Source: Candidatus Saccharimonadota bacterium (GTDB lineage: Bacteria > Bacillota_I > Bacilli_A > Mycoplasmatales > Hepatoplasmataceae). Taken from it: DNA of 32,000 nucleotides. The notes under the pieces were generated by a model. It was not told where the DNA came from. It was given only the letters and a program-made list of their open reading frames with translations, and did not search any database. The DNA lies in the NCBI GenBank assembly GCA_027925325.1, contig AP027133.1, positions 180,001 to 212,000 of the forward strand, in the 5' to 3' direction. The position numbers were made by a program, and so were the translations under genes. Positions 14,274 through 28,986 of this stretch are shown here, piece after piece (position 1 is the stretch's first letter; each line of letters starts with the position of its first letter).

Positions 14274-15563
14274 ATGAATTTAAATTCACTTGCGATAATT
14301 GGAACACAATGGGGAGATGAAGGGAAAGGTAAAATTACAAATTTTTTAGCAAGAAAAGCTGATTTTGTTGTCCGTTATCAGGGCGGAAATAATGCGGGGC
14401 ATTCAATTATTGTAAATAATAAAAAATTTTCTTTACATTTACTTCCTTCTGGTATTTTTTATAAAAATGTTACTAATGTCTTAGCAAATGGCGTTGTCGT
14501 TGATTTATTTGGTTTAATTGATGAATTAGAAAAATTAAAGCAAAATAATTTTAATGATTTTAAACTTATAATTTCAGATCGTGCCCATGTTGTTTTTCCT
14601 TATCATAAAGAAATCGATGGATTATTAGAAAAAGCAAAGGCAAAGGATTCAATTGGAACGACAAAGCAAGGAATCGGTCCTGCCTATACCGATAAGGCTA
14701 GTCGAATTGGAATAAGAATAATTGATTTGTTTGATGATAAATATTTAAAGCAGAGATTACAAGAAAATATTATTCTTAAAAATGCCTTATTAAAAACTTT
14801 AAAAATTGATTACGAGATAAATTTTACTTCTTTATATGCAAAAATAATCGAAGCACGAGCAAAGATTAAAGATTATGTAAAAGACACTGCAAAAATTGTT
14901 TATGATGCTATAAATCTTAATAAAAGAGTTTTATTTGAAGGAGCACAAGGGGTTTTACTTTGTTTAGATCATGGAACTTATCCTTTTGTGACCTCTTCTT
15001 CTCCTACTGCTTCTTCTATTCCATTAAATGTTGGAATTCCTTGTAATTATATAAACGAAGTATTAGGGATTGTAAAGGCCTATACAACAAGAGTCGGAAA
15101 TGGTGTTTTCCTTACAGAAATTAATGATCAAATTGCAAGCAAAATACGGATAAAAGGGAATGAATTTGGGACAACAACAGGAAGAGCACGTAGAATCGGC
15201 TGGTTTGATGCAACGCTTATAAGATATGCAAAACGGATCAATGGAATTACAAAAATTTCAATTACGTTACTTGATGTTCTTTCAGGATTAGATCAAGTAA
15301 AAATTGCTATTAACTATCGACTTGATGGCAAAATAATCGATAGTATTCCTTTACTTGCAAAAAATCTTGCAAGAGTAGAGATTGAATATCTAACATTAAA
15401 AGGTTGAAAAGAAGATATTTCAAATGTTAAATCATTCGATCAACTTCCACTTAATGCTAAACAATATCTAAAAACGATCGAAAAATATAGCGAAATTAAA
15501 ATTGCTCAGTTTTCTGTTGGTCCTAAAGCTGAACAGACAATCGAAGTTTTAAAAATTTGATAA
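14274..15563 (+). CDS. purA: adenylosuccinate synthetase
   Basis: Motifs QWGDEGKGK, GGNNAGH, GIGPAY and TTGRARR are present. The ORF continues past TGA at 15405 and ends ...KIW then TAA at 15561-15563. Confidence 0.93.
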
Positions 15564-15594
15564 ATTAAGCAAAAGTTTTAGCAATTAAAATAGT

Positions 15595-15600
15595 TATAAT
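15595..15600 (+). promoter_or_regulatory. candidate -10 box (TATAAT) for nfo, with spacing typical of a leaderless mRNA
   Basis: TATAAT ends 6 nt before the nfo ATG at 15607. No Shine-Dalgarno sequence lies in between. Confidence 0.3.
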
Positions 15601-15606
15601 AACATT

Positions 15607-16470
15607 ATGAATACAGAACAAAAACCATTAATTGGAGCACATGTCTCATTTAAAAAAGAAGATCAATTATTGGGTTCAATTCGAGATTTTTTAGCAATCG
15701 ATGCCACTTCTGGTGCTTTTTATATTTCTAATTCTCGTGCTTATAAAAAGACAATGATATTAGATCAAAAAAAATTACAAGAAGCAAAAGAATTAGCAAC
15801 TAAAAATAAATTTAATCTTAAAAATATTATCGTTCATGCCCCTTTAGTTGGCAATCTTGCAAATATCGAACAAGATCAAAAAACATATATTTTAACAAGA
15901 GAATCATATTTAGATGACTTAAAGTTAATGGAAAAAATTGGCCTTTCTTTATTTAATTTCCATCCTGGTTCCGCAAAAGATAAAAAATTAGGAATCAAAA
16001 AATGTGCAGAGGGAATTAATTATTTAATCGAGCATACAAAAAATGATCACACGATTGTTTGCATTGAAACAATGATGAAAAAGGGTAATTATATCGGAAG
16101 TAATTTTTCGGAGATTAAAGAAATAATTAATCTTGTAATTAATAAAAAAAGAGTCGGTGTTATTATCGATACATGTCATATTTGAGATGCTGGTTATGAT
16201 TTAAATGATTTTGATAATGTTTTAAAACAATTTGAAATGATAATCGGTCTTAAATATTTAAAGGGATTACATATAAATGATTCTAAAAATCCATTGGGTT
16301 CAAATAAAGATCGTCATGCTAATATCGGTAAGGGTTATATAGGATTAAAAAATCTTAAAAATATCATTTTTCATCCTAAAATAATTAATTTACCAAAAGC
16401 ATTAGAGACTCCATATGGAAAAGACGATTTTAAAAGATGAAAAGAAGAAATTTCACTTTTATTAAATTAA
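15607..16470 (+). CDS. nfo: deoxyribonuclease IV (endonuclease IV)
   Basis: ORFs 15607..16185 and 16237..16440 share a frame and join through TGA codons. Metal-ligand motifs are present: IGAHVS, VHAPL, FHPGS, DTCHIWDAGY and HINDS. Confidence 0.9.
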
Positions 16471-16505
16471 TTAATTTAATAAAATATTTATAAGAAAGAG
16501 AAATA

Positions 16506-17525
16506 ATGAATTTAGAAGATAATAAATTAAATTTTAATAAAGAAAAAGAAATTTATAATGAAGAATTACTGTTCCGTACGGTAGAAAAATATTTTGGCGC
16601 AGATAAATTATATTCATATAATTTAAGTTTTTTGGTAGGAAACGATTTTTTTAAACTGGTAGAAGGATATGATTATGAAGATTTTTATCAAAAATTAAAA
16701 AAAACAAAATCTTATCGTCGAAAAAAAACAACAATTAAAAATTTAGATAAATTATCAAAAAAAATCGGTGCAGAATTTGATATTAATTTTACAGAAGGAT
16801 TATTACAATTAAATAAAAAGAAAAAATATTTTGATTTCACAGATAAATCTCAGTTAATAAAAGAGCTTTATTATCCTTTTTTAAAGATTGTAAATAATTA
16901 TTTGGATAATAGTTTTCAAAGTGAAGTTAATATATTAACAATTGATTTTAGTAATTTTTTTGAGAATTTATTTACACCGAGCCGTTTTGAATTAAAAAAA
17001 TATAATTTTAATCAAGTGAATGAAGAAGAAGCAAATAAGAAAATAAATTTATATAAGATCTTTGGTGATATTGAAAATCCAAAAGAGATAAAATTACCAA
17101 AAGAATTTAAGAAAAATTATCTTCCCTTTTTTGCTTTTGATCAGTTGCGGATTTTTACAAATAAAATTAATCAGAAAAACTCAGTTCTTGTTGTCTTTGG
17201 TTATGATTTTTCCGATCAATATTTAAATAATTTAATTTTAAATTTAAAAAATAATCAAGCGATTAAAGTTTTGCTTTTGGTTGATAATAAAGATAAAAAT
17301 AAAGAGATAATTTATCAATTTTTACAATATCAAAAGATCTTTTTAATTAAATTCATCGATTATCAAGATAAGGATTATCTAATTAATTTAGAGAATATTT
17401 TATATTCAAAAATAGAATTGATGTTTAAAGCTTTAACAGATTTAAATCAAAAAAAAGATCAAGAGAAAATTAAGGGGAAGAAAAAAAATCTAACAAGAAA
17501 GGGAAAAAATAAAAAAAATGAATAA
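16506..17525 (+). CDS. SIR2-like (SIR2_2 / DHS-like fold) protein with substituted catalytic signature and a Lys-rich C-terminal tail
   Basis: Four segments occur in the order and spacing of SIR2_2 motifs. FLVGNDF (aa 42-48) corresponds to fhGAGxS. ILTIDFSNFFE (aa 143-153) corresponds to iiTTNYDnllE. LYKIFGDIENPKEIKLPKEF (aa 182-201) corresponds to KlHGs...p.ivlT..dY. VLVVFGYDFSD (aa 227-237) corresponds to lvflGYSl.D. The ORF is intact and its stop overlaps the next gene's ATG. The assignment was made by eye only. Confidence 0.45.
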   Translation: MNLEDNKLNFNKEKEIYNEELLFRTVEKYFGADKLYSYNLSFLVGNDFFKLVEGYDYEDFYQKLKKTKSYRRKKTTIKNLDKLSKKIGAEFDINFTEGLLQLNKKKKYFDFTDKSQLIKELYYPFLKIVNNYLDNSFQSEVNILTIDFSNFFENLFTPSRFELKKYNFNQVNEEEANKKINLYKIFGDIENPKEIKLPKEFKKNYLPFFAFDQLRIFTNKINQKNSVLVVFGYDFSDQYLNNLILNLKNNQAIKVLLLVDNKDKNKEIIYQFLQYQKIFLIKFIDYQDKDYLINLENILYSKIELMFKALTDLNQKKDQEKIKGKKKNLTRKGKNKKNE

Positions 17526-19431
17526 TTTTGATAATTATATTTTTGGCGTAATTGATTTTGCAAAAGGAAATGAAATTGTTGTAAAAAGCAATAAAGAAAA
17601 AATTTTACAGCGAAATTATATAATCGGTCTTGATCAACTTTTTCTTGCTCCTCGAATTGATCGATTCATCAAATTTTTATTCAATAATCAAATTTTTATT
17701 TATAAAATATTTCAAATTGAAGAAAACGAAAAAAATATCTTTTATCGTTGTTACTATGTTGGTAGATTAATAAATAATAAAGTTATTGAAAATGAAACTT
17801 TTATTGCAAAATTAAATGAAAAGGTTTCACTTATTTCAATTAAAGAATTAAAGCAATTTGATCAAAATTTTGCAAATGATCGATTAAGGATATTAAATAT
17901 CGCAAAAACCTTAGATACAGAAAATGAAATAGATTTAAATTTAAATTTCTTTTCATCTAATAATATTTTATTAGGAAAAAAAGGGAGTGGGAAAAGTAAT
18001 ACGATTAAGAATTTATATCTAGCTTTTTTTAATCAATACTTAAAAAGTTTTAATCAAAAATTTCATAAATTTATTTTCTTTGATTTAAAAAATCAATATC
18101 ATGCTTTTTTTGAAAATAATTTGAATTCTTCATTATTGCCACAATTAATTAAGGTTGATCTAAAAGAGCGTTTAGAACAAAGTGATGTTGCTTTTTTTAA
18201 TTTTAAAAAATTAAGCAAAAAAGAACTTGCCTTTATTTTTAATCTTTCAACAGAGGAAGAAAAAAAATTGCTTTATAATTTTTTAATTTGAATCGAAAAT
18301 TTAAAGCAAATTTCATTTATAAAAATTATCAATGAGGCAATTTTAATTGATCGTAGTTTTGAGATTGTTAAGGTCTTTTTATTAAAACTTTTAAAAATTT
18401 CAACAAAAGAACAAAATCTTAAATTTAATCATTATTTTATTATTTTGCAAGAAATTTTAAATAAATTATCTTTAGATAATAATTTATTTATCTTAAATGA
18501 TGCCTATGATCAATATTCTAATTTTATCGCTAAGGAAAAAAATAAAAATATAAATTACAAGAAAAAGGGTAATAATTTATATTTTGAAAAAGATCATTTT
18601 AATCTCTTTTTAGATTTAATTAAAGGAAAATATTTGAATTTAGAAAATGATAAGAATTTATTAGAACGATTTAATAATTTCATAAATTATGACTTTAATT
18701 CTTTATTAATTTTATTTCAATTGCAAACAATTATTGATAATGACAAATTAGATAATTTTATTCTTAATGAATTTATCGATAAATTAACATTAAAAAAAGA
18801 TAATGATAATTATTTAATTATCAAACATTTTGCTTTAAATTTAAAAGGGTATGAAAAACAAAATGACATTTTATCATCATTTGAAAAAAACAATTTAATT
18901 ATTTTAACATTTGATTATCTTTCAATAAAGGTAAAAAAGAGATTAATTTATCTTTTACTAAAATTATTAACGATTGAAAATTGCTTAGATTTACCAGAAG
19001 AAAAAAGATATTTAAATATTATTCTCGATGATTTTGATCACTTTTTTGAATTGTCACTTATTACAAAAAATCTTGATTTAATTTTATTTGAAAAATTGAT
19101 TTTACAAAAAGCAATTTATAAAACTTTTTTTACGATTGCTGTCGAAAATGTAAATTTATTACGCGAAAAAATCTTTGCTGATTTTGATAATTTCTTAATT
19201 CATCAAATTTTAGATCGGGAAGAATTAGAATTAACAACACATTATTTAAAAAATGTAAATGAACATCAATTAATGCAAACTTTTAAATTTAAAAATACGG
19301 AAGCAATTTTTTATGGAAAATCATTTAAAAGATTATATCCGGTTGAACTTCTAGATTTTTCTGAGAAAAAAGTAATCAATAATGAATCATCTAAGGTTAT
19401 TTTTGATATTTTAAATCAAAAAAGTCAGTAA
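17518..19431 (+). CDS. HerA/FtsK-like P-loop ATPase (637 aa)
   Basis: ORFs 17518..18291 and 18445..19431 share a frame and join through one TGA at 18289. The N-terminus is HAS-barrel-like (YIFGVIDFAKGNEIVVKS). Walker A is LLGKKGSGKSNTIKNL (17974-17997). The Walker B-like segment is YLNIILDDFDHFF (from 19021). The C-terminal pattern FTIAVENVN...NFLIHQILDREE...TEAIFYGKSF..YPVELLDF follows the HerA layout. Confidence 0.65.
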
Positions 19432-19463
19432 AATTATTTTTGTTGTATAATAAAATTAGATTA

Positions 19464-19501
19464 GAAAATGTCACTTTTTTAAAGTGTCATTTTCTTTTTT
19501 T
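19464..19501 (+). terminator. intrinsic terminator after the HerA-like gene
   Basis: GAAAATGTCACT (19464-19475) pairs with AGTGTCATTTTC (19483-19494). This gives a 12-bp stem with one T:T mismatch and a 7-nt loop, followed by a T7 run. Confidence 0.6.
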
Positions 19502-19528
19502 AATCGAAGTCAAAGTTTTTATATTACG

Positions 19529-21220
19529 ATGAAAAAAAGCAGTATTTATATTTTATTTTTATCTTTATTTTTTCTATTTCTTGTTCCGTTTGTTATTTTA
19601 TTTTCAATAGATAATAAGCAAAATAAATTAACTGCTGAAGTTAATGCTAATTTTATTGACCAACATATTGAAAAAAGTTATCAATTTGATGAAGGTGATG
19701 CAGCTGCTGTTACTAGAGATCAAGATGGCTATGATCATCTTTATATGTGGGGAGATAATAGTCACTATCAATTAGGTTTAAATTATCAAACCGCTTATTT
19801 TCCTGATTCAAGCGATTTAAATCTTACAGCAAAAAATTATTATTATTATCCGCAGGAGGTAGCAATTACAAAAGATAACAAAGGGATGATTGATGATTTA
19901 AAATCAACAAAATTTAATACAATTGTCTCTTTTATTGATCAAGATGGTAATTATCATCTTTATATATATGGATCAAATGTAAATGGACTATTAACAAAAG
20001 ATCAATTATATTTAAATTCATCAGATCCAATTATTATTGATATTCCAACTAATTTAAAAATTGAAGATCTTGCGCTTACCGATGATAATGTTTATCTTTT
20101 ATTAAAAGAAAAAAGTGGAAAGAAGCAATATCTTTATAGTTGGGGATTAAATATTAATGGTCAATTGGGATTAGGATTTAATGATAATTTTATTCATAAA
20201 ACTCCTAATGTATCAAAATATATAAATGGTTTAAGTACAGATGATTATGAAATAGAACAAATCTATGCCCAAAATGATGCCTTATATTTAGTTACGAAAA
20301 ATAAAAATGAAGATGATGATTTTGAAACAATTTATACTTTAGGATCAAATCACGATGAACAATTAGCGATTACTGGGTTAGATTATGATGATAATATTTT
20401 AATTCCAACTGAAATTCCTTATTTTGAAGAAATTAAAGCTAATAATATCTATCTTGATGGCAATAATCATTATGGAATTTATGCGCAATATCAATTATTA
20501 AATCAGACCTATTTGGTTAGTTGAGGTAATAATAGAAATAATCAATTGGTTAACATTAATCAAAATATAATCAATCAACCAACAGGCGTCTTTGCTGATC
20601 AAATTGGTGATAGTGGTGAACCTATTTATGATCCGCAAGAAAAAGATTTATTATTTTCTAATTATGGTTATGAACAATCTTTTTTAATTTATCAATATCA
20701 AGATCAATATCAACTTTATGGTTGAGGATTAAATAATCACTATAGTTTAGGAATATCTGATAATCAGATTCATAATACTGAACCTATTGCTATCAAGAGT
20801 ATCAATAATCAAAATTATCAAGTAAAAGGATTATCAACCGGTAGTCATAGCAGTAGTCTTATAATAGAAGATCAAGATAACAATCAAAGTTTATACACAT
20901 GAGGATATAATCAAACCGGACAATTAGGAAATGGAGAAGAAGCATCATTTACTGCAGAACAAAATACCACTTTTTATCTTTCTTTACAAACTTACATTGT
21001 AAAAGAAAGTAGTAATAATTATTATAAATTGCCTCTTGCTATTTTTATTGTAATAGTAATTTTATTATTATTAGTTCTTATCACTTTATATATCAGCGTT
21101 AAGAGATATAAAGTCCTTGAGGCTAAAAAAAAGCAAACAGGACAACAACAAAATGAAGTTTTGAATCAAGAATTAACAGCAGAATTAACAACACAAAATT
21201 TAGATTTGAATGTAGATTAA
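19529..21220 (+). CDS. membrane-anchored RCC1-like 7-blade beta-propeller protein
   Basis: ATG at 19529 gives MKKSSIYILFLSLFFLFLVPFVILFS, a signal peptide or signal anchor. There are seven [LY]Y.WG.N..GQLG-type blades: HLYMWGDNSHYQLG, HLYIYGSNVNGLL, YLYSWGLNINGQLGLG, IYTLGSNHDEQLA, LVSWGNNRNNQLV, LYGWGLNNHYSLG and LYTWGYNQTGQLGNG. Three blade Trp residues are TGA-encoded. A C-terminal TM segment LPLAIFIVIVILLLLVLITLYI is followed by a short charged tail. Confidence 0.75.
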
Positions 21221-22320
21221 TTTTTAAAACTTATATTTTCATTTTTAGCTTTAATTAAATCGATTTTTTGTTTATCTTTTGCTTCAAATAAAAGATAAAT
21301 TTTTCCTTTTAAGTCGTTAACACGATTTGTTCTTCCGATTCGATGTTTAAAATAATTTAAATCAATCGGTAAATCATAATTTATGATGTGACTAACATGA
21401 TTAAAATCAATTCCTCTTGCATATAAATCAGTTGTAATGAGATAAATAATTTTTTCGTTTTTTGCTTCATTAAAAACTTGTTTTCTTTTTCTTGGATTTA
21501 AATCAGAATTAAAATATCTAATATCTTTAAAATTATTTTTATTTAAGAAATTATAGATTTTTTTAACTTCTTCATTTTTATTAGCAAAAATGATCACAAA
21601 ATAAGGATTTATTTCATTACTTTCTAACAATTCTTTTAATACTTGTAATTTATCGTTCTCGATAACTTTAATTAATTTGATATCAACTTTTTTTGTTAAT
21701 TTATTATCTAAATCAATTAATTTAGGATTAATTTTAAATGTTTTTTTAATTTTATTTTGTAAATCACCAGAAAGTGTAGCTGAAAAAAAGGCGTAGGTAA
21801 TTTTGTTTTTTAATCTTAAATTTTTAACAAATTTTGCAATTAAATCTAATTGTTTAAAATGATAAATCATATCGATTTCATCTACTATTAAATATTTTAA
21901 TTCTCTATAGTCAATTGGTGATTTATTTTGCAAAGCAAAAATTTTTTCAATCGTTGTAACAATTATTTTGCTTTTTTTGTGATATTTCCTTTTTTCTCAT
22001 TCATAATCAAGATTTTTGGTAATTGCAAAAAAATCAAAATTAAAATATTTATTTAGCTTTTGTAATTGATTTTTTAATTGTTGTACAAGTTCATTGGTTG
22101 GAACGATAATAATTGCTTCAACATTATTTTTACTTTTATCTAAATTATTGATAATCGGTAGAAGATACGCTAATGTTTTTCCTGTTCCGGTCGGTGATTG
22201 ACAAAAAAGATCATCATTTTTTAGCAAAATCGGAAATACTTCTTTTTGTACTTGTAACAAATCAGTAAATTTTTCTGCCTTTAAATAATTATTTAAATTT
22301 TCTTTCAATTCTAGTTTCAT
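21217..22320 (-). CDS. DEAD-box ATP-dependent RNA helicase
   Basis: Minus-strand ORFs 21997..22320 and 21217..21933 share a frame and join through one TGA (21997-21999 on +). Motifs SPTGTGKT (I), IVDEID (II variant), SAT (III), TDLYARGID (V) and HRIGRTNR (VI) are present. Confidence 0.88.
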
Positions 22321-22357
22321 TTATAATTATTTCCTTTTAATTTATTATATATTTAAT

Positions 22358-22903
22358 ATGAAAATTAATTTTGGAAAATATCGTAATACTAATTTAGTTG
22401 TCGGCAAAAATGAAAAAATGCGGCCAACAACAGCAATCGCAAAAAAAATAATTTTTAATACTTTAAAAATTAGGGAAGATGATTTAGTGATTGATCTTTT
22501 TGCAGGAACAGGAGCATTGGGATTTGAAGCTTGATCATTAGGTGCTAAAAAAATTATTTGAATCGATAATAACTTAAAATCTTATCAAGCAATTAAAAAA
22601 AATATTTCGGATCTAAAATTAAGTAAAAATGACTATCAGGTTTTTCATACTGATTTTCGAAGAGCTCTTAAAAAAATTCCTTTTGCTGCAACAATCATCT
22701 TTCTTGATCCACCTTTTATTTCTGAAAAATATTATGATCTTAGTTTAAAAATAATTAATGAACATAATCTTTTATCAGATCAAGGAGTAATTATTTTAGA
22801 AAAACCATCGACTTACAATCTTAATAATCTTAAATTGTATAATATATTTATCAATAAAAAAGTAGGAGTTAACCAAGAAATATTTTTTCTAAGAAAAAAA
22901 TAA
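22358..22903 (+). CDS. rsmD: 16S rRNA (guanine966-N2)-methyltransferase
   Basis: This gene is absent from the ORF track because of two internal TGA codons. Motifs MRPTTAIAKKIIFN, DLFAGTGALGFEAWSLGA and FLDPPF are present. It is followed by coaD, the usual rsmD-coaD pairing. Confidence 0.8.
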
Positions 22904-22909
22904 TAAAAT

Positions 22910-23416
22910 ATGGAAAAAACAAACAACGAGATAAAAAAAGAGGAAATAGCGATCTTTCCTGCTTCTTTTAATCCCATTCATATCGGTCATATCGAATTAA
23001 TCAAAATGTCAGCGACAATTTATAAAACTTTATATGTTTTTGTTGCTGATAACGAAAGTAAAAATTATCAAGTAAAATTAGAAGATCGTTTTAAAATCGT
23101 AAATAAAGCTATCTCTTTTTTAAATATGAGTAATATAATTGTTATTAAACAAAATAATTTGCAAACAACGGGGTCTTTTACAAAGGATAAAAAGATTGAT
23201 GTCGTAATAAGAGGAAATCGAGAGATTAAATTATCTTCTTATGAATCAATTCTTGCTGATAAATATTTAGAAGATAATGAGAATTTAAAATTCCATTTTT
23301 TTAGTTTTGAAGATGAACAGACTTCCTCTACTAAAATTAGAGAATTAATTGCAAATGATCAATCAATAAGCGGACTTGTTCCTAAAATTGTTGAAAAAGA
23401 TATAATAAAACTATGA
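22910..23416 (+). CDS. coaD: phosphopantetheine adenylyltransferase
   Basis: FPASFNPIHIGHIELI (nucleotidyltransferase HxGH motif) and SSTKIRE (ISSTxxR motif) are present. Confidence 0.88.
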   Translation: MEKTNNEIKKEEIAIFPASFNPIHIGHIELIKMSATIYKTLYVFVADNESKNYQVKLEDRFKIVNKAISFLNMSNIIVIKQNNLQTTGSFTKDKKIDVVIRGNREIKLSSYESILADKYLEDNENLKFHFFSFEDEQTSSTKIRELIANDQSISGLVPKIVEKDIIKL

Positions 23417-23979
23417 AAAAACGCGGAAAGATAATTATTTTTGCAGGTCCTAGCGGTGTCGGAAAGGAAACCGTTAAGAAATTATTTATAAATGATCCTC
23501 GATTTAAACTTAAATATTCAATATCTGCAACTTCAAGAGAAAAAAGAATCGGAGAAAAGAACGGCGATAATTATCACTTTCTAACAAGAAGTAAATTTGA
23601 GAATTGAATCAAAAAAGATCGATTTTTAGAATGAGTTACTTTTGCTAATAATTATTATGGTACTCCTTATAAATTTTTAGAGAATCATTTAAGAAAAGGG
23701 CAAAATGTTTTATTAGAAATAGATTTGGTCGGTGTAAAAAAAGTAATCAAAAAATATCCAGATGCTGTTACAATTTTTTTATTGCCACCGACAATTGCTG
23801 ATTTAGAAAAAAGATTACTTGCAAGAAAAACAGAGAATATTACAGAAATCAAAAAAAGAATTGATATTGCGCGAGCAGAAATAAAAGAGAAAGATTTATT
23901 TAAATATCAAGTTATAAATAAAACACCAGAAAATTCTGCGCAGAAAATAATTGAAATTTTAAAAAAGGAACTTTTGTAA
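23413..23979 (+). CDS. gmk: guanylate kinase
   Basis: ORFs 23413..23607 and 23725..23979 share a frame and join through two TGA codons. The P-loop GPSGVGK and TSREKRIGEKNGDNYHF are present. Confidence 0.9.
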
Positions 23980-23982
23980 ATA

Positions 23983-24714
23983 ATGAAATTTAATTTTGCT
24001 GGAAGAACAGTTAAGGGAGTACGGGTTGAAAATCAAGATAACTATACTGTTTTTTTAGCAAAAAATAAATCTTATTTCGTTGCTGCGATCGCTGATGGGA
24101 TGGGTGGATATCGTGGCGGTAAATTAGCATCAGAGGTAACGATAAATTTTATTGAAAGAGATTTTAAGGATCTTAATTTAGAGTATAAAACAGATAATGA
24201 TATCTTTAATTTGATGATTAAAGAGATTAGATTGATTCAATTAAAATTGATTAATTTAGTAAAAAAAGAAAATGCTCCCTTCAATATGGGAACAACAATT
24301 AATTTCAATTTAATTTATAAAAATAAGATATATACTTTAAATATTGGTGATACAAGATCAACAAATTATTATCAAAAAGAGTTAAAAGATATCTCAGAAG
24401 ATCATAATTTAGCAGCACTTGCCAAAAAAAATAAGTCTTTTCGCAAGTATTATAAATATACAAATTATCTTACTTCTGCCCTTGGGCCAAAAAAAGAATC
24501 AATATTAGATATTTTTATAACAAATATCAAACAAAAAGGGATTTTAATTGTTGCATCAGATGGGATTCATAATTTTGTAAAAACAAAAGAATTATTAAAA
24601 ATTTTAAAGACAGATATTTCACTTTCCAAAAAAGTTGATAAGATTATTTCTAGAGCTATGAAGAATCAATCAAATGATAATATGACATGTGTCTTGGTGG
24701 AGTATGGAGTTTAA
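23983..24714 (+). CDS. prpC: PP2C-family Ser/Thr protein phosphatase
   Basis: Motifs NQDN, ADGMGGYRGG, GDTR, ASDGI and DNMTCVLV are present. It lies immediately upstream of, and overlaps, the kinase gene. Confidence 0.85.
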   Translation: MKFNFAGRTVKGVRVENQDNYTVFLAKNKSYFVAAIADGMGGYRGGKLASEVTINFIERDFKDLNLEYKTDNDIFNLMIKEIRLIQLKLINLVKKENAPFNMGTTINFNLIYKNKIYTLNIGDTRSTNYYQKELKDISEDHNLAALAKKNKSFRKYYKYTNYLTSALGPKKESILDIFITNIKQKGILIVASDGIHNFVKTKELLKILKTDISLSKKVDKIISRAMKNQSNDNMTCVLVEYGV

Positions 24715-25726
24715 ATCAAATGTAATTATTAATAATAAATATAAAATTGTTTCGGAAATTGGAAAGGGAGCTTCTGCTGTTGTCTATCTTGGATATGACT
24801 TACTAAATAATAAAAATGTTGCTTTAAAAATTCAAAATCAAAAAGATGAATTTTCTAATATGGATAAAAGATTTAAATTAGAGGCAAATACTTTGCTTAA
24901 TTTAAATCACCAAAATATCGTCGATACATATGATTACTTTACTTGAAATAATCGTCGTGTGATTGTAATGGAATATTTAGATGGGAAAACACTTGAGAAA
25001 TATATTAGAGAAAAGCAATATCTTTCTTCAAAAGAAGTTGCAACCTTTGCAATTGAAATTTTGGAAGGATTAGATCATGTTCATCAAAATGGAATTATGC
25101 ATCGTGATCTCAAACCAGCTAATATTACGATTACCGTTGATAATAAACTCAAATTAATGGATTTTGGTATTATTCAAACTTCAATTAATCAAGAATTAAC
25201 AAGGCAGGCAAGCATCATTGGAACGATCCAATATTTAGCACCTGAGATATTTAAAGGTGAAAAATCTTCTCCTCCTTCAGAAATGTTTTCAATTGGGGTA
25301 TTACTTTATCGAATGTCAACCGGAGTTTTACCATTTAAGGGAATATCACACGAAGATACAGCGAAGAAAATTTTAAATGATGATCCGTTACCACCAACAA
25401 ATATTAATAAGATGCTTGATTTAGAATTAGAAAAGATAATTTTAAAGTTATTGCAAAAAGATTATTATAATCGTTACCAAACGGCGCGCGAGACGATCAA
25501 TGCTCTTAAGGATTATTTAATAAACCGGGAGCAATATAAAATCAATCAATCAACGAAATTTCTGCAAGATAGGCAAGTTATCGAAAATAATAATCAGACC
25601 TTATCAAAGAGTAAACAAAAAATAAAAAAGAAAAAAGCAAAAGAAATTAAATTAATAAATTATTTGCTTTTTTTTATTGTAATTTTTTTAATATTAGCAC
25701 TTATTATGATTCCTATTTTTATTTAA
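24704..25726 (+). CDS. prkC: Hanks-type Ser/Thr protein kinase, C-terminally membrane-anchored
   Basis: ORFs 24689..24946 and 24959..25726 share a frame and join through TGA at 24944. ATG at 24704 is the likely start. Motifs GKGASAVVY, VALK, HRDLKPAN, DFG and APE are present. A single C-terminal TM segment (LLFFIVIFLILALIMIPIFI) ends at the stop codon. Confidence 0.88.
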
Positions 25727-25798
25727 AATTTTTAAAATATTTTTTAAATTTATCTTAATAATTTATTTTCAAAAAAATTATAATTTTTGTGATAAATT

Positions 25799-26212
25799 AT
25801 GAATAAAAATAGAAAATTAAATTTTAATCTAGAGTATCAGAAATTTTTTAAAACTCCCAATTGGGAGTTAATAGAAATTTTATATTCAAGAAATAAATAT
25901 AGCATTTTAAGAGAAGATCATATAGCAATTAAAATTAATACTAGAAAAAGAAAATTAGAATTTTTACAAATTTATTTATATTTACAAATTGTAAAAAATG
26001 GCAATATTAATCCAATTGAGATTATTGAAGTATATGATAATTTTTCCGATTATATTGATTCGATTTTATCTAAAAATATTGATGAAAAACATAAAAATGA
26101 TTTTGAAATAAAAATAATTAATTTAATTTTATGCTTAAGAAATATTAATACAAAAATTTCTTCTATATTGTATTCTTATATATTTTCATTTGAAAAAACA
26201 TTAATTATTTAA
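25799..26212 (+). CDS. hypothetical protein (137 aa), first ORF of the accessory island
   Basis: The ORF is intact with an ATG start, and TATAAT lies at 25779-25784. I see no recognisable motif. Its 3' end overlaps the open frame of the next ORF. Confidence 0.4.
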   Translation: MNKNRKLNFNLEYQKFFKTPNWELIEILYSRNKYSILREDHIAIKINTRKRKLEFLQIYLYLQIVKNGNINPIEIIEVYDNFSDYIDSILSKNIDEKHKNDFEIKIINLILCLRNINTKISSILYSYIFSFEKTLII

Positions 26213-26889
26213 TAAATCATAAATTTATAAGTAATAATTTAAATATTTTAGAAATTATTTCTCATAATAAAAAGATTGAAATTTCAAAAAATAAAATTAA
26301 AAATTTACAAGAAAAAGATTATATAATTACGGAAAAAAATCTTTTTGTTAAAAATGCAAAAATTATGGAAGAATTATATTTTAAAGAAAAGATATCAATA
26401 TTAAAATATCTGCAAAATGAAAAATTTTTAACTTTACAAGATTTGATAAAAAGAAAATTTATTAGTTCAGGGAAAATAAAGGAAAGAGAAAATTTTTTTA
26501 GAAAAAAAGGTTTTAGTGAAGAGGGAATAAAAAATGGAATATGAAATTATTTTATAGAAAGATTACAAAAAACTAGTGATTTGAGAAATAAAATATCTCA
26601 TCTTGATAATTTAATTATTAAAAAAAATGATTCCGAGGATTTATTAAATTATTTTTATGGTCAGTTCGATCTCTTAAGAAATGATTATACAATAGAAATT
26701 TTTTATAAGATTAAATTAATTTTTTTGAAAAATAATTTAATATCTAGAAATGATATTTTAAGAAATCATTATGAAGATTTCTTTGCTTTTAAAATGAAAA
26801 AGAACAAAAATAATAAAAATGAACAATTCTTAAAAGAAAGAATTGTTCAAGATAAACATACAAATTTGTCTTTAAATTCACACAACTAA
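26149..26889 (+). CDS. HEPN-motif (RNxxxH) protein, Abi-like candidate; start codon unresolved, possibly frameshifted from the upstream ORF
   Basis: Read with code 4, this frame is open from 26149 to TAA at 26887-26889 through two TGA codons. The track shows only 26581..26889. R-N-K-I-S-H lies at 26584-26601, in the context WNYFIERLQKTSDLRNKISHLDNL. The first in-frame ATG is at 26365. The region upstream of that ATG reads like winged-helix segments (LNILEIISHNKKIEISKNKIKNLQEKDYII). Confidence 0.4.
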
Positions 26890-26940
26890 ATGTGCTACAG
26901 TAAAGGATTTATGTTCCTTCACACAACTAAATGTGCTACA
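26877..26940. repeat. perfect 23-nt direct repeat x2 (TTCACACAACTAAATGTGCTACA) separated by an 18-nt unique spacer
   Basis: Copy 1 is 26877-26899 and copy 2 is 26918-26940, identical at 23/23 positions. The spacer GTAAAGGATTTATGTTCC is 26900-26917, giving a 41-nt period. Copy 1 contains the stop codon of the HEPN-motif ORF. Confidence 0.9.
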
Positions 26941-27020
26941 TATCTATTATATATAAATTTTATTTTAAAAATAAAATATTTAAAAAATTAGATAAAATTA
27001 TCATAATTTTACTATTAACT

Positions 27021-27040
27021 TATAATTATTTTAAAAGGAG
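27021..27040 (+). promoter_or_regulatory. candidate -10 box plus strong Shine-Dalgarno for the hidden propeller gene
   Basis: TATAAT is at 27021-27026. AAGGAG is at 27035-27040, 6 nt before ATG at 27047. Confidence 0.4.
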
Positions 27041-27046
27041 AATTAA

Positions 27047-28414
27047 ATGAAGAAATATTATGGAATTTTATTAATTCCACTACTAGGAATAATTCCTATT
27101 AATAAAAATATAATTAACAAAGATAATACTAATTTTGAAGGACAGAATGGTGTAATTATTGATATTTCAGCGCAAGAGACCTGAACAGGAGCAATATTAG
27201 ATTCAGATTTAGATGGATATGGTGATTTTGTTTATATTTGGGGTAATTTTAATTCAGAACCAACAAAATTTGATTTTGCTTGAAATGGCAATTTGATTAA
27301 TTTAGAATTAGGCTCATATTTATCTGCAGGAGTTACGGTTGATATCGATTATGATGGATATGCTGATACTTTATATATGTGAGGAAATAATCAACATGCG
27401 CAATTAGGAAATGGAACTTATGGAAATTATGATTTAAATGATCCAATTAAAATAACTCCCGAAGGACAGGATAATTGAAATGGTAATATTATTGATTTAT
27501 CATTAGGTAGTTATAATACATCAGTTATTATTGATACCGATTATGATGGATATGCCGATACATTTTATTCATGAGGAGATAATATCGGAGGGGAAAATGG
27601 TAATGGTCAAAATGGACTTAATACAGAAGGAGAAGATCAATATGTTTTATATCCTCAAGAAATAGCTCCAGAAGGAAGAGGGGGTTGAAATGGTAATATT
27701 ATCGATCTTGATTTAGACTCAATTACCTCTGCTGCAACTGTTGATGGAAATTATGATGGATATTCCGATACCTTATATATGTGAGGAACCGGTGTTTATA
27801 ATTATTATGGACATGGTCCTGTTTTATATCCAACAAAAATAATCCCAGAAAGAGAAGATGATTGAAGAGGAGATATTGTTGATTTTGATACAGATTATCA
27901 TAATACAGGGGTTGTTGTAGATACAAATTATGATCATATCGGTGATACTCTATATATTTGAGGTTATGCAAGTGAAGGTCAAATTGGGAATGGATATTTT
28001 GAAGATACTAGAGAAAATTTTCCGATTCAAAATACCTTTTTTGTTGATAAAAATATTATAAATCTTGAAATTAAAGATGATGCCCTTGCTGTTTCAACCG
28101 ATGAGAATTTAGATGGTTATGCCGATACCCTTTATATGTGAGGATATAACAATAAAGGTCAACTTGGTGATGAAACAACGATAAGTAAAAGCACACCAAC
28201 AAAAATAATTCCCGATCAAAAAGATAATTGAGGCGGAAACATTATCGATGTATCATTAGGTGGAAGAGATTCAATGGTTTTAACCGATCAAAATAGTGAT
28301 AATTTAGGAGATACAATTTATATGTGGGGTGATAATCAGTTTTATCAATTAGGATTTTTATCAGAAGATGAAATCGTTTCAACTCCCTATCAAATAATTA
28401 CAACAATTTTTTAA
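27047..28414 (+). CDS. secreted 7-blade beta-propeller protein, RCC1-like with a DxDxDG-type loop in every blade (455 aa)
   Basis: No + strand ORF appears in the track because 12 in-frame TGA codons break it. Read with TGA=Trp, the frame is open from ATG at 27047 to TAA at 28412-28414. The N-terminus is MKKYYGILLIPLLGIIP. Seven repeats follow the pattern W.G.IIDL.LG...(D.[DN].D[GHN]..D)TLY.WG.N..GQLGNG. TGA falls at the conserved blade Trp positions. Confidence 0.8.
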
Positions 28415-28560
28415 TATTTTGATAATTTTAAATATATAAGATAAAATTAATTTGTTTGTCTTAAATATTATCTTTATTATTTTATAATACTTACATTGTA
28501 GTTATTTGAATTTAGTTTAAATAATGGATAAATAGATAATAGAATAGAAAGAAGTAAAAA

Positions 28561-28860
28561 ATGAATAAAAAATACAGTCCTTATCTTGGTCCCTTGCAAG
28601 GGACTGAAATTTTAAAAAAGTCACCTTTTGAAGTAGAGGATGATGATGGAAAATATAAAATAATTAAATGCAATTGTGGATCAACTGAATTTAAAAAAAC
28701 AAAAAATTATTATGGTGATAATGAACTTTCTTGTGAATACAATATATATTGTATTAAATGTAATAAAAGAATATGATTTCGTGATGATGATAATACCATC
28801 GGAGGAAAAGAAGATCATAGATTTTTTTATAAAGAAACAGTAGAATATAAGAAAGTTTAA
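28561..28860 (+). CDS. small zinc-ribbon protein (99 aa), hypothetical
   Basis: ORF 28561..28776 continues through TGA at 28774 to TAA at 28858-28860. Cys pairs C-N-C and C-I-K-C lie about 27 aa apart. An AGAAAGAAG purine tract precedes the ATG. Confidence 0.5.
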
Positions 28861-28878
28861 TAAATTTTTTATATCTAG

Positions 28879-28904
28879 AAATTTATTAATTCTTTAATAA
28901 ATTT
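28879..28904 (+). terminator. AT-only hairpin, weak candidate terminator closing the island
   Basis: AAATTTATTAA (28879-28889) and TTAATAAATTT (28894-28904) form a perfect 11-bp inverted repeat with a TTCT loop. T-rich sequence follows. The stem has no G:C pairs. Confidence 0.3.
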
Positions 28905-28986
28905 ATTTCTTTGAATTATTTTATTTAAAAATAAAGAAGAAATTTTTAAGAAATTAAAAATAATTCAAATTTCATTTTTTTTATAA

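What the first reader, a model, noticed from the sequence alone, without database searches (positions are those of the whole stretch)
25799..26889. HEPN-type RNxxxH ORF with no ATG start, overlapping the upstream ORF in the -1 frame (frameshifted, phase-variable or non-canonical start)
Read with code 4, the frame containing L-R-N-K-I-S-H (26581-26601, a canonical R-N-x3-H HEPN RNase motif) is open for 246 codons from 26149. The first ATG is only at 26365. The upstream ORF (25799-26212, a different frame) overlaps it by 64 nt. The overlap begins at an A5T3 tract (ACAAAAATTTC, 26150-26160). A single-base gain in that tract would fuse the two ORFs into one protein of about 365 aa. The motif context (W..F...L....DLRNKISH...L, about 95 aa from the C-terminus) resembles Abi_2/AbiD-type and other HEPN abortive-infection or toxin proteins. 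The preceding sequence reads like two winged-helix segments. Further RN motifs occur downstream: RNDYTI, and RNDILRNH (an Rx6H motif) at 26746-26769. This suggests a HEPN RNase in an accessory island, possibly switched on and off by a homopolymer tract.
Basis: partly seen in the sequence, partly recalled or inferred. Interest (0 to 1): 0.7.

Follow-up and report, generated by a model that had tools for sequence, protein, structure and literature searches.

The report
Frameshift-split orphan gene with HEPN-like motif
The two overlapping reading frames are one roughly 363-codon gene of a family found so far only in Hepatoplasma (isopod gut mollicutes), split by the loss of one A from a poly-A run; the family keeps an invariant RNxISH motif that looks like a HEPN RNase site, but no fold or homology evidence confirms that.

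Summary
With code 4, ORF_A (25799-26212) and the ATG-less frame B (26149-26889) overlap by 64 nt, and L-R-N-K-I-S-H sits at 26581-26601.

They are one gene. Five uninterrupted homologues of 342-502 aa, all from Hepatoplasma, align end to end with ORF_A joined to ORF_B. The closest one reads ...YIFSFEKNINYLI... straight across the junction.

The window is Ca. Hepatoplasma scabrum Ps-JP, assembled from Illumina reads only at about 20x. The public record annotates the two halves as separate hypothetical proteins, HPPSJP_1970 and HPPSJP_1980. The gene lies in a 3.2-kb island that is absent from strain Ps.

The block [YF]RNxISHL[ED]N is the most conserved stretch in the family. However, Pfam, NCBIfam, PADLOC, PHROGs, PDB sequence profiles, Foldseek on an AlphaFold model (pLDDT 74) and hhalign against Abi_2 all give nothing significant. 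The HEPN reading therefore rests on the motif alone, and Abi_2 membership is not met.

A 23-nt hairpin motif, usually in pairs about 40 nt apart, flanks the three closest family genes and occurs nowhere else in 104 kb.

The most likely explanation is a recently inactivated copy. Phase variation and sequencing error cannot be excluded without the reads.

The parts
25799..26197 (+). N-terminal 133 codons of the gene, in frame A. Publicly annotated as HPPSJP_1970, whose ORF runs on out of frame to the stop at 26210-26212.
   Evidence: BLASTP against P0003 residues 12-136 gives E=2e-25. Codon-usage log-odds are positive. Exact match to BDV03476.1.
26193..26198 (+). A6 run (GAAAAAAC) where one A is missing. 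This is the true frameshift site.
   Evidence: Frame A ...YIFSFEK joins frame B NINYLINHKF..., and together they match P0003 ...YIFSFEKNINYLIDSKF. At the aligned site the homologue DNA carries A8 in L004, A7 in L005 and A5 in L003; in L002 an A7 run at gene position 475, inferred to be the same site.
26197..26889 (+). C-terminal 230 codons plus the stop, in frame B. Base 26197 is shared with the last frame-A codon because of the missing A. The public annotation HPPSJP_1980 starts only at the ATG at 26365.
   Evidence: BLASTP against P0003 residues 125-333 gives E=1e-45 and includes the 57 codons before the first ATG. Codon log-odds for 26212-26364 are +0.52. P0001 is identical to BDV03477.1.
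26392..26511 (+). Winged-helix-like segment (ISILKYLQNEKFLTLQDLIKRKFISSGKIKERENFFRKKG).
   Evidence: Pfam HTH_24 at E=0.049, 13.7 bits, below the 21.9-bit cut-off. The equivalent P0003 residues 194-234 are modelled as three short helices at pLDDT around 90. This is weak evidence.
26584..26610 (+). RNKISHLDN, the family's invariant HEPN-like R-N-x-I-S-H-L-[ED]-N block.
   Evidence: R263, N264, I266, S267, H268, L269 and N271 are invariant in 6 of 6 sequences. It lies in the top-scoring 12-residue window of the alignment, 92% mean column identity against 41% overall.
26820..26849 (.). Perfect 12-bp-stem palindrome inside the non-conserved C-terminal extension of the gene.
   Evidence: Flagged as terminator-like on the minus strand. 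Its function is unknown.
26877..26899 (+). Copy 1 of the 23-nt motif TTCACACAACTAAATGTGCTACA. It covers the stop codon of the gene.
   Evidence: 0 expected by chance. Related copies lie next to the homologous genes in L002 and L003.
26918..26940 (+). Copy 2 of the 23-nt motif, 41 nt after copy 1.
   Evidence: The 4-bp hairpin CACA-N6-TGTG is kept in 7 of 7 copies, with compensatory changes at 2 of 4 pairs. The covariance model finds no other copy in 104 kb.
25735..28921 (.). Strain-variable island holding this gene, an RCC1-repeat protein (27047-28414) and a small Cys-rich (zinc-ribbon-like by eye) ORF (28561-28860).
   Evidence: blastn of the window against L001 (Ca. H. crinochetorum Ps) shows synteny ending at 25734 and resuming at 28922. 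Strain Ps carries 0.84 kb of unrelated DNA there.

Best explanation
ORF_A and ORF_B are the two halves of a single gene of about 363 codons from a protein family found so far only in Hepatoplasma. Known members are:
- P0003 from Ca. H. crinochetorum Tokyo2021;
- P0002 from Ca. H. vulgare;
- P0004, an intact paralogue in the same Ca. H. scabrum genome;
- P0005 and P0007 from Logan assemblies.

In this genome an A7 run has contracted to A6 at 26193-26198. Translation from the ATG at 25799 therefore leaves the correct frame after Lys133 and stops four codons later. The remaining 230 codons are stranded without a start codon; they carry a winged-helix-like segment and the invariant RNxISH block.

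Shown: one gene, the position of the lesion, the conservation of the motif, and the location in a variable island.

Inferred:
(a) The deletion is real and recent, giving a young pseudogene or an 'off' allele. The reasons are that the assembly is Illumina-only and that the downstream frame is still fully open.
(b) The intact family protein is a helical nucleic-acid-binding protein whose RNxISH block is a HEPN-type RNase centre. I put this at about 35-40%.
(c) The protein may act with, or be regulated through, the paired 23-nt hairpin motif that accompanies the three closest family genes. I put this at about 15-25%.
For: Single gene:
- A full-HMMER search with the C-terminal piece found homologues of 342-502 aa.
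- The six-sequence alignment is collinear over the whole fused protein, at 33-47% identity.
- ORF_A matches P0003 residues 12-136 (E=2e-25) and ORF_B matches residues 125-333 (E=1e-45).
- The junction peptide FEK|NINYLI is identical in P0003.

Lesion site:
- At the aligned site the homologue DNA carries an A8 run in L004, A7 in L005 and A5 in L003. In L002 an A7 run at gene position 475 is inferred to be the same site; the script printed a different site for L002.
- Codon statistics favour frame A through the overlap and frame B afterwards, including the pre-ATG stretch.

Real rather than a sequencing error:
- The MAG was assembled by SPAdes from HiSeq reads only, at about 20x (PMC10928387).
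- The other 28 or so genes in the window are intact.

Recent:
- There is no second lesion in 363 codons, even though the region is only 17-24% GC.

Functional motif:
- RNxISHL.N is invariant, and the 12-residue window containing it is the most conserved in the family.
- RNxxxH occurs 0 times in the other 9,798 aa of the window.
- The same RφxxxH pattern (φ = a polar residue: N, H or D) is the catalytic signature of HEPN RNases, for example RNQCAH in the Clostridioides difficile AbiF protein, AbiFCd (PMC12373285).

Variable island.

Associated DNA/RNA motif.
Against: - No read-level data were available, so an assembly error or population heterogeneity at the A run cannot be excluded. Coverage is only about 20x and the assembly was not polished.
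- Nothing beyond the motif supports HEPN. There were no Pfam, NCBIfam, PADLOC or PHROGs hits for any family member.
- There was no hit to PDB sequence profiles.
- Foldseek on the pLDDT-74 model gave no match better than E=0.9. The solved AbiF structure PbAbiF (PDB 8vz6_A) reached only E=4.4 and a query-normalised TM-score (TMq) of 0.27.
- hhalign against Abi_2 gave probability 0.2-0.5%.
- In the model, the motif sits at the C-terminal end of a long helix and its local confidence drops. Residues 266-270 have pLDDT below 50.
- A short motif can be invariant for reasons other than RNA cleavage.
- The hairpin in the 23-nt motif has only 4 bp, and its position varies: 3' of the gene in the window, 5' of the gene in L003, and on both sides in L002.
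Confidence: 0.7

Rival explanations
1. Phase-variable contingency gene. Slipped-strand mispairing at the poly-A run toggles the gene between A7 (on, full-length 363-aa protein) and A6 (off), and the assembly happened to capture the off state.
For: - The lesion is exactly a one-unit change in a homopolymer.
- The homologues from L005 and L004 keep A7 and A8 at the same codons, and L002 probably A7 (gene position 475), so the tract is ancestral and mutable.
- The downstream frame is completely intact.
- The gene is accessory and may be toxic, which is the type of gene often held under on/off control.
- The paper reports 30 Illumina-detected variants in this MAG, so some heterogeneity exists.
Against: - From my own knowledge, A6/A7 is short for a high-frequency switch. 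Characterised mollicute phase-variable tracts are usually longer.
- Every family gene holds 7-11 runs of seven or more A or T, and the window gene itself has five such runs. The tract is therefore just ordinary AT-rich coding sequence.
- L003 has only A5 at this site, so the run is not conserved as a device.
- No read data were examined.
Confidence: 0.12
2. Assembly or sequencing error. The true genome has A7 and the gene is intact and functional.
For: - The genome is an unpolished metagenome-assembled genome at about 20x Illumina and about 5x ONT coverage.
- The only defect in 363 codons is a single homopolymer length.
Against: - From my own knowledge, Illumina HiSeq reads rarely miscall A6 versus A7, and SPAdes takes a consensus over about 20 reads.
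- All other genes in the 32-kb window, which contain many comparable runs, are intact.
Confidence: 0.12
3. Programmed recoding. A -1 ribosomal frameshift or transcriptional slippage on the A run makes the full-length protein from the A6 allele, with the 137-aa product as the default.
For: - A P-site Lys-tRNA on AAA (26195-26197) can re-pair perfectly at 26194-26196. The next -1 codon, AAC, then gives exactly the homologues' ...FEKNINY sequence.
- From my own knowledge, A-rich endosymbiont genomes can rescue poly-A frameshifts through polymerase slippage.
Against: - All five homologues are uninterrupted, so the frameshift is not a conserved feature.
- In frame A the site reads GAA-AAA-ACA, which is not an X-XXY-YYZ heptamer.
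- From my own knowledge, A6 is well below the roughly 9 nt needed for efficient transcriptional slippage.
- No stable downstream stimulator is evident in the sequence.
Confidence: 0.04
4. Two genuine separate genes, as in the public annotation: HPPSJP_1970 (137 aa) and HPPSJP_1980 (174 aa, from the ATG at 26365).
For: Both are annotated as CDSs in AP027133.1. The 174-aa product would still contain the winged-helix-like segment and the RNxISH block.
Against: - The 57 codons before the ATG are homologous to P0003 and have the strongest coding signal in the locus.
- The Met at 26365 aligns with Ile or Leu in the homologues.
- The break falls in the middle of a helix modelled as 50 residues long, P0003 residues 97-146.
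Confidence: 0.02

Closest known systems
Abi_2 / AbiD-AbiF abortive-infection HEPN toxins (Pfam PF07751), with their abiF-motif ncRNA antitoxin (Rfam RF03085), for example AbiFCd/RCd22 and PbAbiF (PDB 8vz6)
   Same: - Single-gene, all-helical proteins of about 290-360 aa.
- An invariant R-N-x-x-x-H block about 85-100 residues from the C-terminus, preceded by a helix bearing an aromatic or Trp residue.
- Found in accessory regions.
- AbiF is accompanied by two short repeated RNA hairpin motifs 19 nt apart. Here, two 23-nt hairpin motifs 18 nt apart accompany the gene.
- hhalign puts RN..H in register with RN.CAH.
- PbAbiF has the highest query-normalised TM-score among the weak whole-chain Foldseek PDB hits.
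   Different: - No statistical similarity was found. Pfam Abi_2 gave nothing at E<=1 for six members. hhalign gave probability 0.2-0.5%. Foldseek gave E=4.4 and TM about 0.3.
- None of the other Abi_2 invariant residues is present: Y45, Y69, R76, E87, P151, W153 and R210.
- There is no RF03085 match, even at E<=10 in the window region and at gathering threshold in the whole window and L002-L005.
- The repeats here are shorter, with a 4-bp stem, and lie 3' of the gene in the window rather than 5'.
HEPN superfamily in general: HepT/DUF86 toxins, Csm6/Csx1 (CARF-HTH-HEPN), RnlA/LsoA, Cas13
   Same: - The [hydrophobic]-R-N-x-[ILV]-[AS]-H signature.
- All-alpha architecture.
- A possible HTH module directly upstream, as in Csx1/Csm6.
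   Different: - No HEPN family model matches.
- The N-terminal half is helical and not CARF-like.
- There is no adjacent MNT, antitoxin or cas partner.
- One subgroup (P0004, P0005, P0007) holds a stable chromosomal position between uvrA and uvrB. From my own knowledge, that is atypical for mobile toxins.
Poly-A-tract frameshift pseudogenes and contingency loci of AT-rich host-restricted bacteria (own knowledge: Buchnera/Blochmannia poly-A slippage, mycoplasma phase-variable genes)
   Same: A one-base change in a coding A run splits the gene. The downstream frame is still intact. The genome is small, AT-rich and host-associated.
   Different: The tract is only 6-7 nt long. No evidence of heterogeneity or rescue is available.

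Membership tests
Abi_2 / AbiD / AbiF (PF07751) | Significant match to the Pfam Abi_2 HMM | tested here: not met
   No Abi_2 hit at E<=1 for ORF_A, ORF_B, the fused protein or any of the five homologues. No hit at E<=10 for the six C-terminal segments.
Abi_2 / AbiD / AbiF (PF07751) | Profile-profile homology to Abi_2 alignments | tested here: not met
   hhalign of A1 against A5 (25 AbiFCd relatives) gave probability 0.2%. Against A6 (20 sequences including 10 diverse plasmid Abi proteins) it gave probability 0.5%, E=0.11, with only the RN..H stretch aligned.
Abi_2 / AbiD / AbiF (PF07751) | Structural similarity to solved AbiF (8vz6) | tested here: inconclusive
   Whole-chain Foldseek gave 8vz6_A at rank 8: E=4.4, probability 0.12, TMq 0.27. 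A domain-level comparison was not possible.
Abi_2 / AbiD / AbiF (PF07751) | Associated abiF RNA motif (RF03085) upstream of the gene | tested here: not met
   Rfam scans gave no RF03085 match: the whole window at gathering threshold, 25650-27060 at E<=10, and L002-L005 at gathering threshold.
HEPN superfamily | Conserved Rx4-6H motif with a polar residue after R (RφxxxH) | tested here: met
   RNKISH at 26584-26601. R, N, I, S and H are invariant in 6 of 6 family members, and the motif is in the most conserved window of the alignment.
HEPN superfamily | Four-helix up-down HEPN bundle with the motif at a dimer interface | tested here: inconclusive
   The AlphaFold2 model of P0003 has pLDDT 74 and pTM 0.68 and is all-helical. 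The motif lies at the end of helix 239-268. No significant Foldseek match was found in PDB or BFVD. The single-sequence model of the window's C-terminal piece has pLDDT 57 and also gave no match.
HEPN superfamily | Metal-independent RNase activity that depends on R and H | not testable with these tools
   Needs biochemistry on a repaired protein recoded from code 4.
Type III toxin-antitoxin (protein toxin plus repeated RNA antitoxin) | Tandem short repeats adjacent to the toxin gene and transcribed with it | tested here: inconclusive
   Two perfect 23-nt copies lie 41 nt apart at the 3' end of the gene. Pairs or single copies lie beside P0003 and P0002 on the same strand. The 4-bp hairpin shows compensatory changes, with 8 of 500 shuffles scoring as well. 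No transcription data are available, and the position is 3' in the window rather than 5'.
Phase-variable contingency locus | Simple-sequence tract at the frameshift point | tested here: met
   The A6 run at 26193-26198 is the break. L005 has A7 and L004 A8 at the aligned site, and L002 an A7 run at gene position 475 that is probably the same site.
Phase-variable contingency locus | Tract-length heterogeneity within or between populations | not testable with these tools
The paper reports 30 variants for this MAG without positions in the text I read.
Programmed -1 ribosomal frameshift | The frameshift is conserved in homologues and uses an X-XXY-YYZ slippery heptamer in the 0 frame | tested here: not met
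   All five homologues are uninterrupted. The 0-frame codons are GAA-AAA-ACA.
Winged helix-turn-helix (HTH_24-like) | Match to an HTH profile above threshold | tested here: inconclusive
   HTH_24 gave E=0.049 and 13.7 bits against a cut-off of 21.9, for ORF_B residues 82-121 only, and was not seen in the other members.

The most novel reading that the evidence does not exclude
The Hepatoplasma family is a previously unrecognised HEPN-type RNase lineage that works together with its own short paired-hairpin RNA, the 23-nt CACA-N6-TGTG motif usually found in pairs about 40 nt apart. This would be an AbiF-like or type III toxin-antitoxin-like protein-RNA module that arose, or diverged beyond recognition, in a minimal-genome gut symbiont. 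The copy in this window would be switched off by slippage at a coding poly-A run.
Probability: 0.1. Interest if true: 0.6.

Novelty: new variant of a known kind. Interest (0 to 1): 0.38.

Why it matters
The finding has three practical consequences.

First, it corrects a public annotation. HPPSJP_1970 and HPPSJP_1980 are two fragments of one gene, and HPPSJP_1980's start codon is an annotation artefact.

Second, it defines a lineage-restricted protein family that is absent from Pfam, NCBIfam, PADLOC and PHROGs. Its one invariant block is the HEPN catalytic signature.

Third, it links that family to a conserved short hairpin motif. If the HEPN and RNA-partner reading is right, it would add an RNA-associated RNase module to the very small defence repertoire reported for Hepatoplasmataceae; the genome paper lists only restriction-modification and CRISPR-Cas9. 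It would also give a compact system to compare with AbiF, the proposed ancestor of Cas13.

If the reading is wrong, this is an ordinary young pseudogene in an AT-rich symbiont.

Tried and rejected
- A k-mer-seeded homology search with the fused protein found nothing, and with the family alignment it found only two members. The exhaustive HMMER search with the table-11-legal C-terminal piece is what found the family.
I therefore modelled homologue P0003 with an 8-row alignment instead.
- tblastn of the fused protein against the plasmid and phage collections gave no match.
- PDB sequence searches gave only an annexin A4 match at E about 0.7, which is noise.
- Scans of viral and JGI metagenome contigs for relatives found none. 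The metagenome scan for the 23-nt motif returned only a 1.1-kb contig equivalent to the rplO-downstream copy in L002.
- The repeat region at 26860-26960 folded as RNA gave z=-0.34, so there is no stable structure beyond the small hairpins.
- I rejected CRISPR remnant as an explanation for the repeats. They are 23 nt long with an 18-nt spacer, only two copies exist, and there is no Rfam CRISPR-DR hit at the repeats.
- I rejected a match to the abiF RNA motif RF03085.
- I looked for a conserved protein partner. The neighbours differ in every locus. The small hydrophobic ORFs next to some members show no obvious similarity to one another on inspection of their translations.
- The conserved GC-rich stretch after the stop codon of the uvrA-uvrB subgroup genes gave no Rfam hit and only a weak two-sequence consensus fold.
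Full report
**1. What is in the sequence**

The window has about 24% GC and uses TGA as Trp. With table 4 it resolves into a dense array of ordinary mollicute genes.
- ORF_A runs 25799-26212 and encodes 137 aa.
- A second frame, -1 relative to the first, is open for 246 codons from 26149 to 26889.
- The first ATG in that frame is at 26365, and the two frames overlap by 64 nt.
- L-R-N-K-I-S-H is at 26581-26601.

A codon-usage log-odds score trained on 28 genes of the window is positive for all three coding segments:
- frame A over 25799-26148: +0.33 bits per codon;
- frame B over the ATG-less stretch 26212-26364: +0.52;
- frame B over 26365-26886: +0.23.
Each segment scores strongly negative in its other two frames.

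Inside the overlap, frame A scores +0.25 and frame B scores -0.31. That already suggested the frame change lies near the end of ORF_A rather than at its start.

**2. Where the window comes from and what surrounds the locus**

A scan of species-representative genomes with the neighbouring Ser/Thr kinase found Ca. Hepatoplasma crinochetorum Ps at 82% amino-acid identity. Exact look-ups then identified the window as Ca. Hepatoplasma scabrum Ps-JP.
- ORF_A is HPPSJP_1970 (BDV03476.1).
- The ATG-started part of ORF_B is HPPSJP_1980 (BDV03477.1).
- Both are annotated as hypothetical proteins.

The genome paper states that this MAG (AP027133.1) was assembled by SPAdes from HiSeq reads alone. Coverage was about 20x and no polishing was done (PMC10928387).

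blastn against the strain Ps locus shows collinearity for window 14762-25734 and again from 28922 onward. The stretch 25735-28921 is replaced in strain Ps by 0.84 kb carrying an unrelated 246-aa orphan. That stretch holds this gene, an RCC1-repeat protein and a small Cys-rich (zinc-ribbon-like by eye) ORF.

**3. One gene, and the exact lesion**

Pfam, PADLOC, NCBIfam, PHROGs, PDB sequences, plasmid and phage tblastn, and a k-mer-seeded search of 5.8 billion proteins all gave nothing for the two ORFs or their fusion.

An exhaustive HMMER search of 1.84 billion representatives succeeded. I used the only piece the tool would accept, the table-11-legal C-terminal 114 aa. It found the annotated 174-aa fragment itself plus five full-length relatives:

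| Protein | Length | Source |
|---|---|---|
| P0003 | 360 aa | Ca. H. crinochetorum Tokyo2021 |
| P0002 | 342 aa | Ca. H. vulgare |
| P0004 | 360 aa | HPPSJP_4700, an intact paralogue in the same genome |
| P0005 | 346 aa | Logan assembly |
| P0007 | 502 aa | Logan assembly |

ORF_A joined to ORF_B aligns with all five from the first Met to the C-terminal domain, at 33-47% identity. By BLASTP, ORF_A matches P0003 residues 12-136 (E=2e-25). ORF_B, including the 57 codons before its first ATG, matches residues 125-333 (E=1e-45).

P0003 reads ...IYPYIFSFEKNINYLIDSKFLSNNL. The window reads ...LYSYIFSFEK in frame A and NINYLINHKFISNNL in frame B. The switch therefore lies between the Lys codon at 26195-26197 and the Asn codon, inside the run GAAAAAAC (A6, 26193-26198).

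At the aligned site the homologous DNA has A8 in L004, A7 in L005 and A5 in L003. In L002 an A7 run at gene position 475 falls where this site is expected, but the script printed a different site for L002, so that one is inferred rather than shown. The window copy is one A short.

Frame A between that tract and the A6 run (KISSILYSYIFSFEK) is conserved in the homologues.

**4. Pseudogene, switch or error**

The assembly is Illumina-only, and the other 28 or so genes in the window are intact. I therefore take the deletion as real, while noting that coverage is modest.

There is no second lesion in 363 codons of sequence with about 20% GC, so the event is recent.

All five homologues are uninterrupted, and the 0-frame codons GAA-AAA-ACA do not form a slippery heptamer. 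Conserved programmed frameshifting is therefore unlikely.

A poly-A on/off switch is possible but not indicated. The run is short. Each family gene contains 7-11 runs of seven or more A or T. One homologue has only A5 at this site. Only the reads can decide between these options.

**5. What the protein is**

The 12-residue window RNKISHLDNLII is the most conserved in the family, at 92% mean column identity against 41% overall. R, N, I, S, H, L and N are invariant.

RNxxxH occurs nowhere else in 9,798 aa of window proteins, and in 4% of composition-matched shuffles.

The pattern hydrophobic-R-N-x-[ILV]-[AS]-H is the HEPN catalytic signature. One example is RNQCAH in the Clostridioides difficile AbiF protein AbiFCd, where R202 and H207 are needed for toxicity (PMC12373285).

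All other tests were negative or uninformative:
- None of the six members hits any Pfam HEPN or Abi family, even as isolated C-terminal segments at E<=10.
- A family profile finds nothing among PDB sequences.
- An AlphaFold2 model of P0003 built with the 8-row family alignment has pLDDT 74 and pTM 0.68. The central and C-terminal parts reach 80-94. It is entirely helical and places the motif at the end of helix 239-268.
- Foldseek finds no neighbour with E below 1 in PDB or BFVD. The solved AbiF structure PbAbiF (8vz6_A) appears only at E=4.4 and TMq 0.27.

To test Abi_2 directly, I took AbiF from phage phiC2. I collected 25 relatives and ten diverse plasmid Abi proteins, then ran hhalign. Probabilities were 0.2% and 0.5%. 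In the second run the RN..H stretches aligned in register, but at E=0.11.

Abi_2 membership is therefore not met. HEPN remains a motif-level inference, which I put at about 35-40%.

A winged-helix-like segment precedes the motif domain. Support is weak: HTH_24 at E=0.049, plus three short helices modelled with high confidence. P0007 duplicates this segment.

**6. Genomic behaviour of the family**

The three closest members sit in different places:
- the window gene lies after pknB;
- P0003 lies after rplO;
- P0002 lies between ecfT and truA.

P0005 and P0007 share a position between uvrA and uvrB. P0004's locus could not be retrieved. No protein-coding neighbour is shared.

**7. An associated short element**

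The 23-nt sequence TTCACACAACTAAATGTGCTACA occurs twice, 41 nt apart. The first copy covers the stop codon of the gene.

Related copies lie on the same strand beside the close homologues:
- a pair just downstream of P0003 (L002 about 9103 and 9142);
- another pair about 380-420 nt upstream of P0003 (L002 about 7578 and 7620);
- one copy 63 nt upstream of P0002.

All seven copies keep a 4-bp hairpin, CACA-N6-TGTG, with C-G to U-A changes at two of the four pairs. All cells are paired, and 8 of 500 shuffles score as well.

No Rfam family matches, including the abiF motif.

The arrangement recalls the two abiF hairpins spaced 19 nt apart in the RCd22 antitoxin RNA. However, the stem is tiny, the position relative to the gene varies, and there are no transcription data. 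Other readings remain open: a protein-binding DNA site, or a boundary repeat of a mobile cassette.

**8. Verdict**

The 'frameshifted gene in an accessory island' reading is right, with a corrected break point. The HEPN reading is plausible but unproven, and the Abi_2 link fails.

The object itself is an ordinary, recently broken gene. The modest interest lies in the unclassified family with an invariant HEPN-like centre and its companion hairpin motif.

Noticed in passing
window 16506-17525 and 17518-19431: Two overlapping genes look like a SIR2-HerA anti-phage defence pair. The first hits Pfam SIR2_2 (E=1.3e-9) and PADLOC SIR2 (E=7.8e-9). The second hits PADLOC HerA (E=7.6e-6) and has a Walker-A-like GKKGSGKSN. 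The region is conserved in strain Ps (L001). The genome paper lists only restriction-modification and CRISPR-Cas9 as defence systems.
   Followed up: partly
window 26877-26899 and 26918-26940; L002 about 7578, 7620, 9103 and 9142; L003 7916-7938; L007 1087-1109: A 23-nt motif with a covarying 4-bp hairpin, usually in pairs about 40 nt apart. It was found only beside the three closest family genes, on the gene strand. It could be an RNA partner, a regulatory site or a cassette boundary.
   Followed up: partly
window 26820-26849: A perfect 12-bp-stem palindrome (TGAACAATTCTT-AAAAGA-AAGAATTGTTCA) inside the non-conserved C-terminal extension of the gene. It scores as an intrinsic terminator only on the minus strand, and no minus-strand gene lies downstream of it.
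   Followed up: no
window 27047-28414 and 19529-21220: The gene at 27047-28414 encodes an RCC1-repeat protein with a hydrophobic, signal-peptide-like N-terminus (Pfam RCC1, E=3.7e-28). It lies inside the variable island and is built from about 180-210-nt DNA repeats. The protein encoded at 19529-21220 reads as RCC1-like by eye only (no domain search was run on it). An unusual eukaryote-like repeat protein family in this symbiont.
   Followed up: partly
L001 11084-11827 (Ca. H. crinochetorum Ps): Strain Ps carries an unrelated 246-aa orphan ORF at the same insertion point between pknB and the nusB-like gene. It has no Pfam or PADLOC hit. The junction therefore appears to be a hotspot for gene gain and loss.
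   Followed up: partly
L004 2185-2260 and L005 6660-6735: A conserved, relatively GC-rich stretch of about 70 nt lies directly after the stop codon of the uvrA-uvrB subgroup genes P0005 and P0007. It contains a GGGC...GCCC hairpin with one compensatory change and ends in CGCAACCTAAATATAGTATA, which faintly resembles the 23-nt motif. There is no Rfam hit.
   Followed up: partly
L005 5151-6659 (P0007): This family member is 502 aa long because of an internal duplication of about 140 aa covering the winged-helix-like segment.
   Followed up: no
L001 15670-17379: A 569-aa ORF downstream of ftsZ in strain Ps looks DUF262/GmrSD-like, that is, like a type IV restriction enzyme. I judged this by eye and did not test it.
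   Followed up: no
window 25799-26889 (public record AP027133.1): Annotation issue: HPPSJP_1970 and HPPSJP_1980 are fragments of one frameshifted gene. The annotated start of HPPSJP_1980 (ATG at 26365) aligns with Ile or Leu in the homologues.
   Followed up: yes
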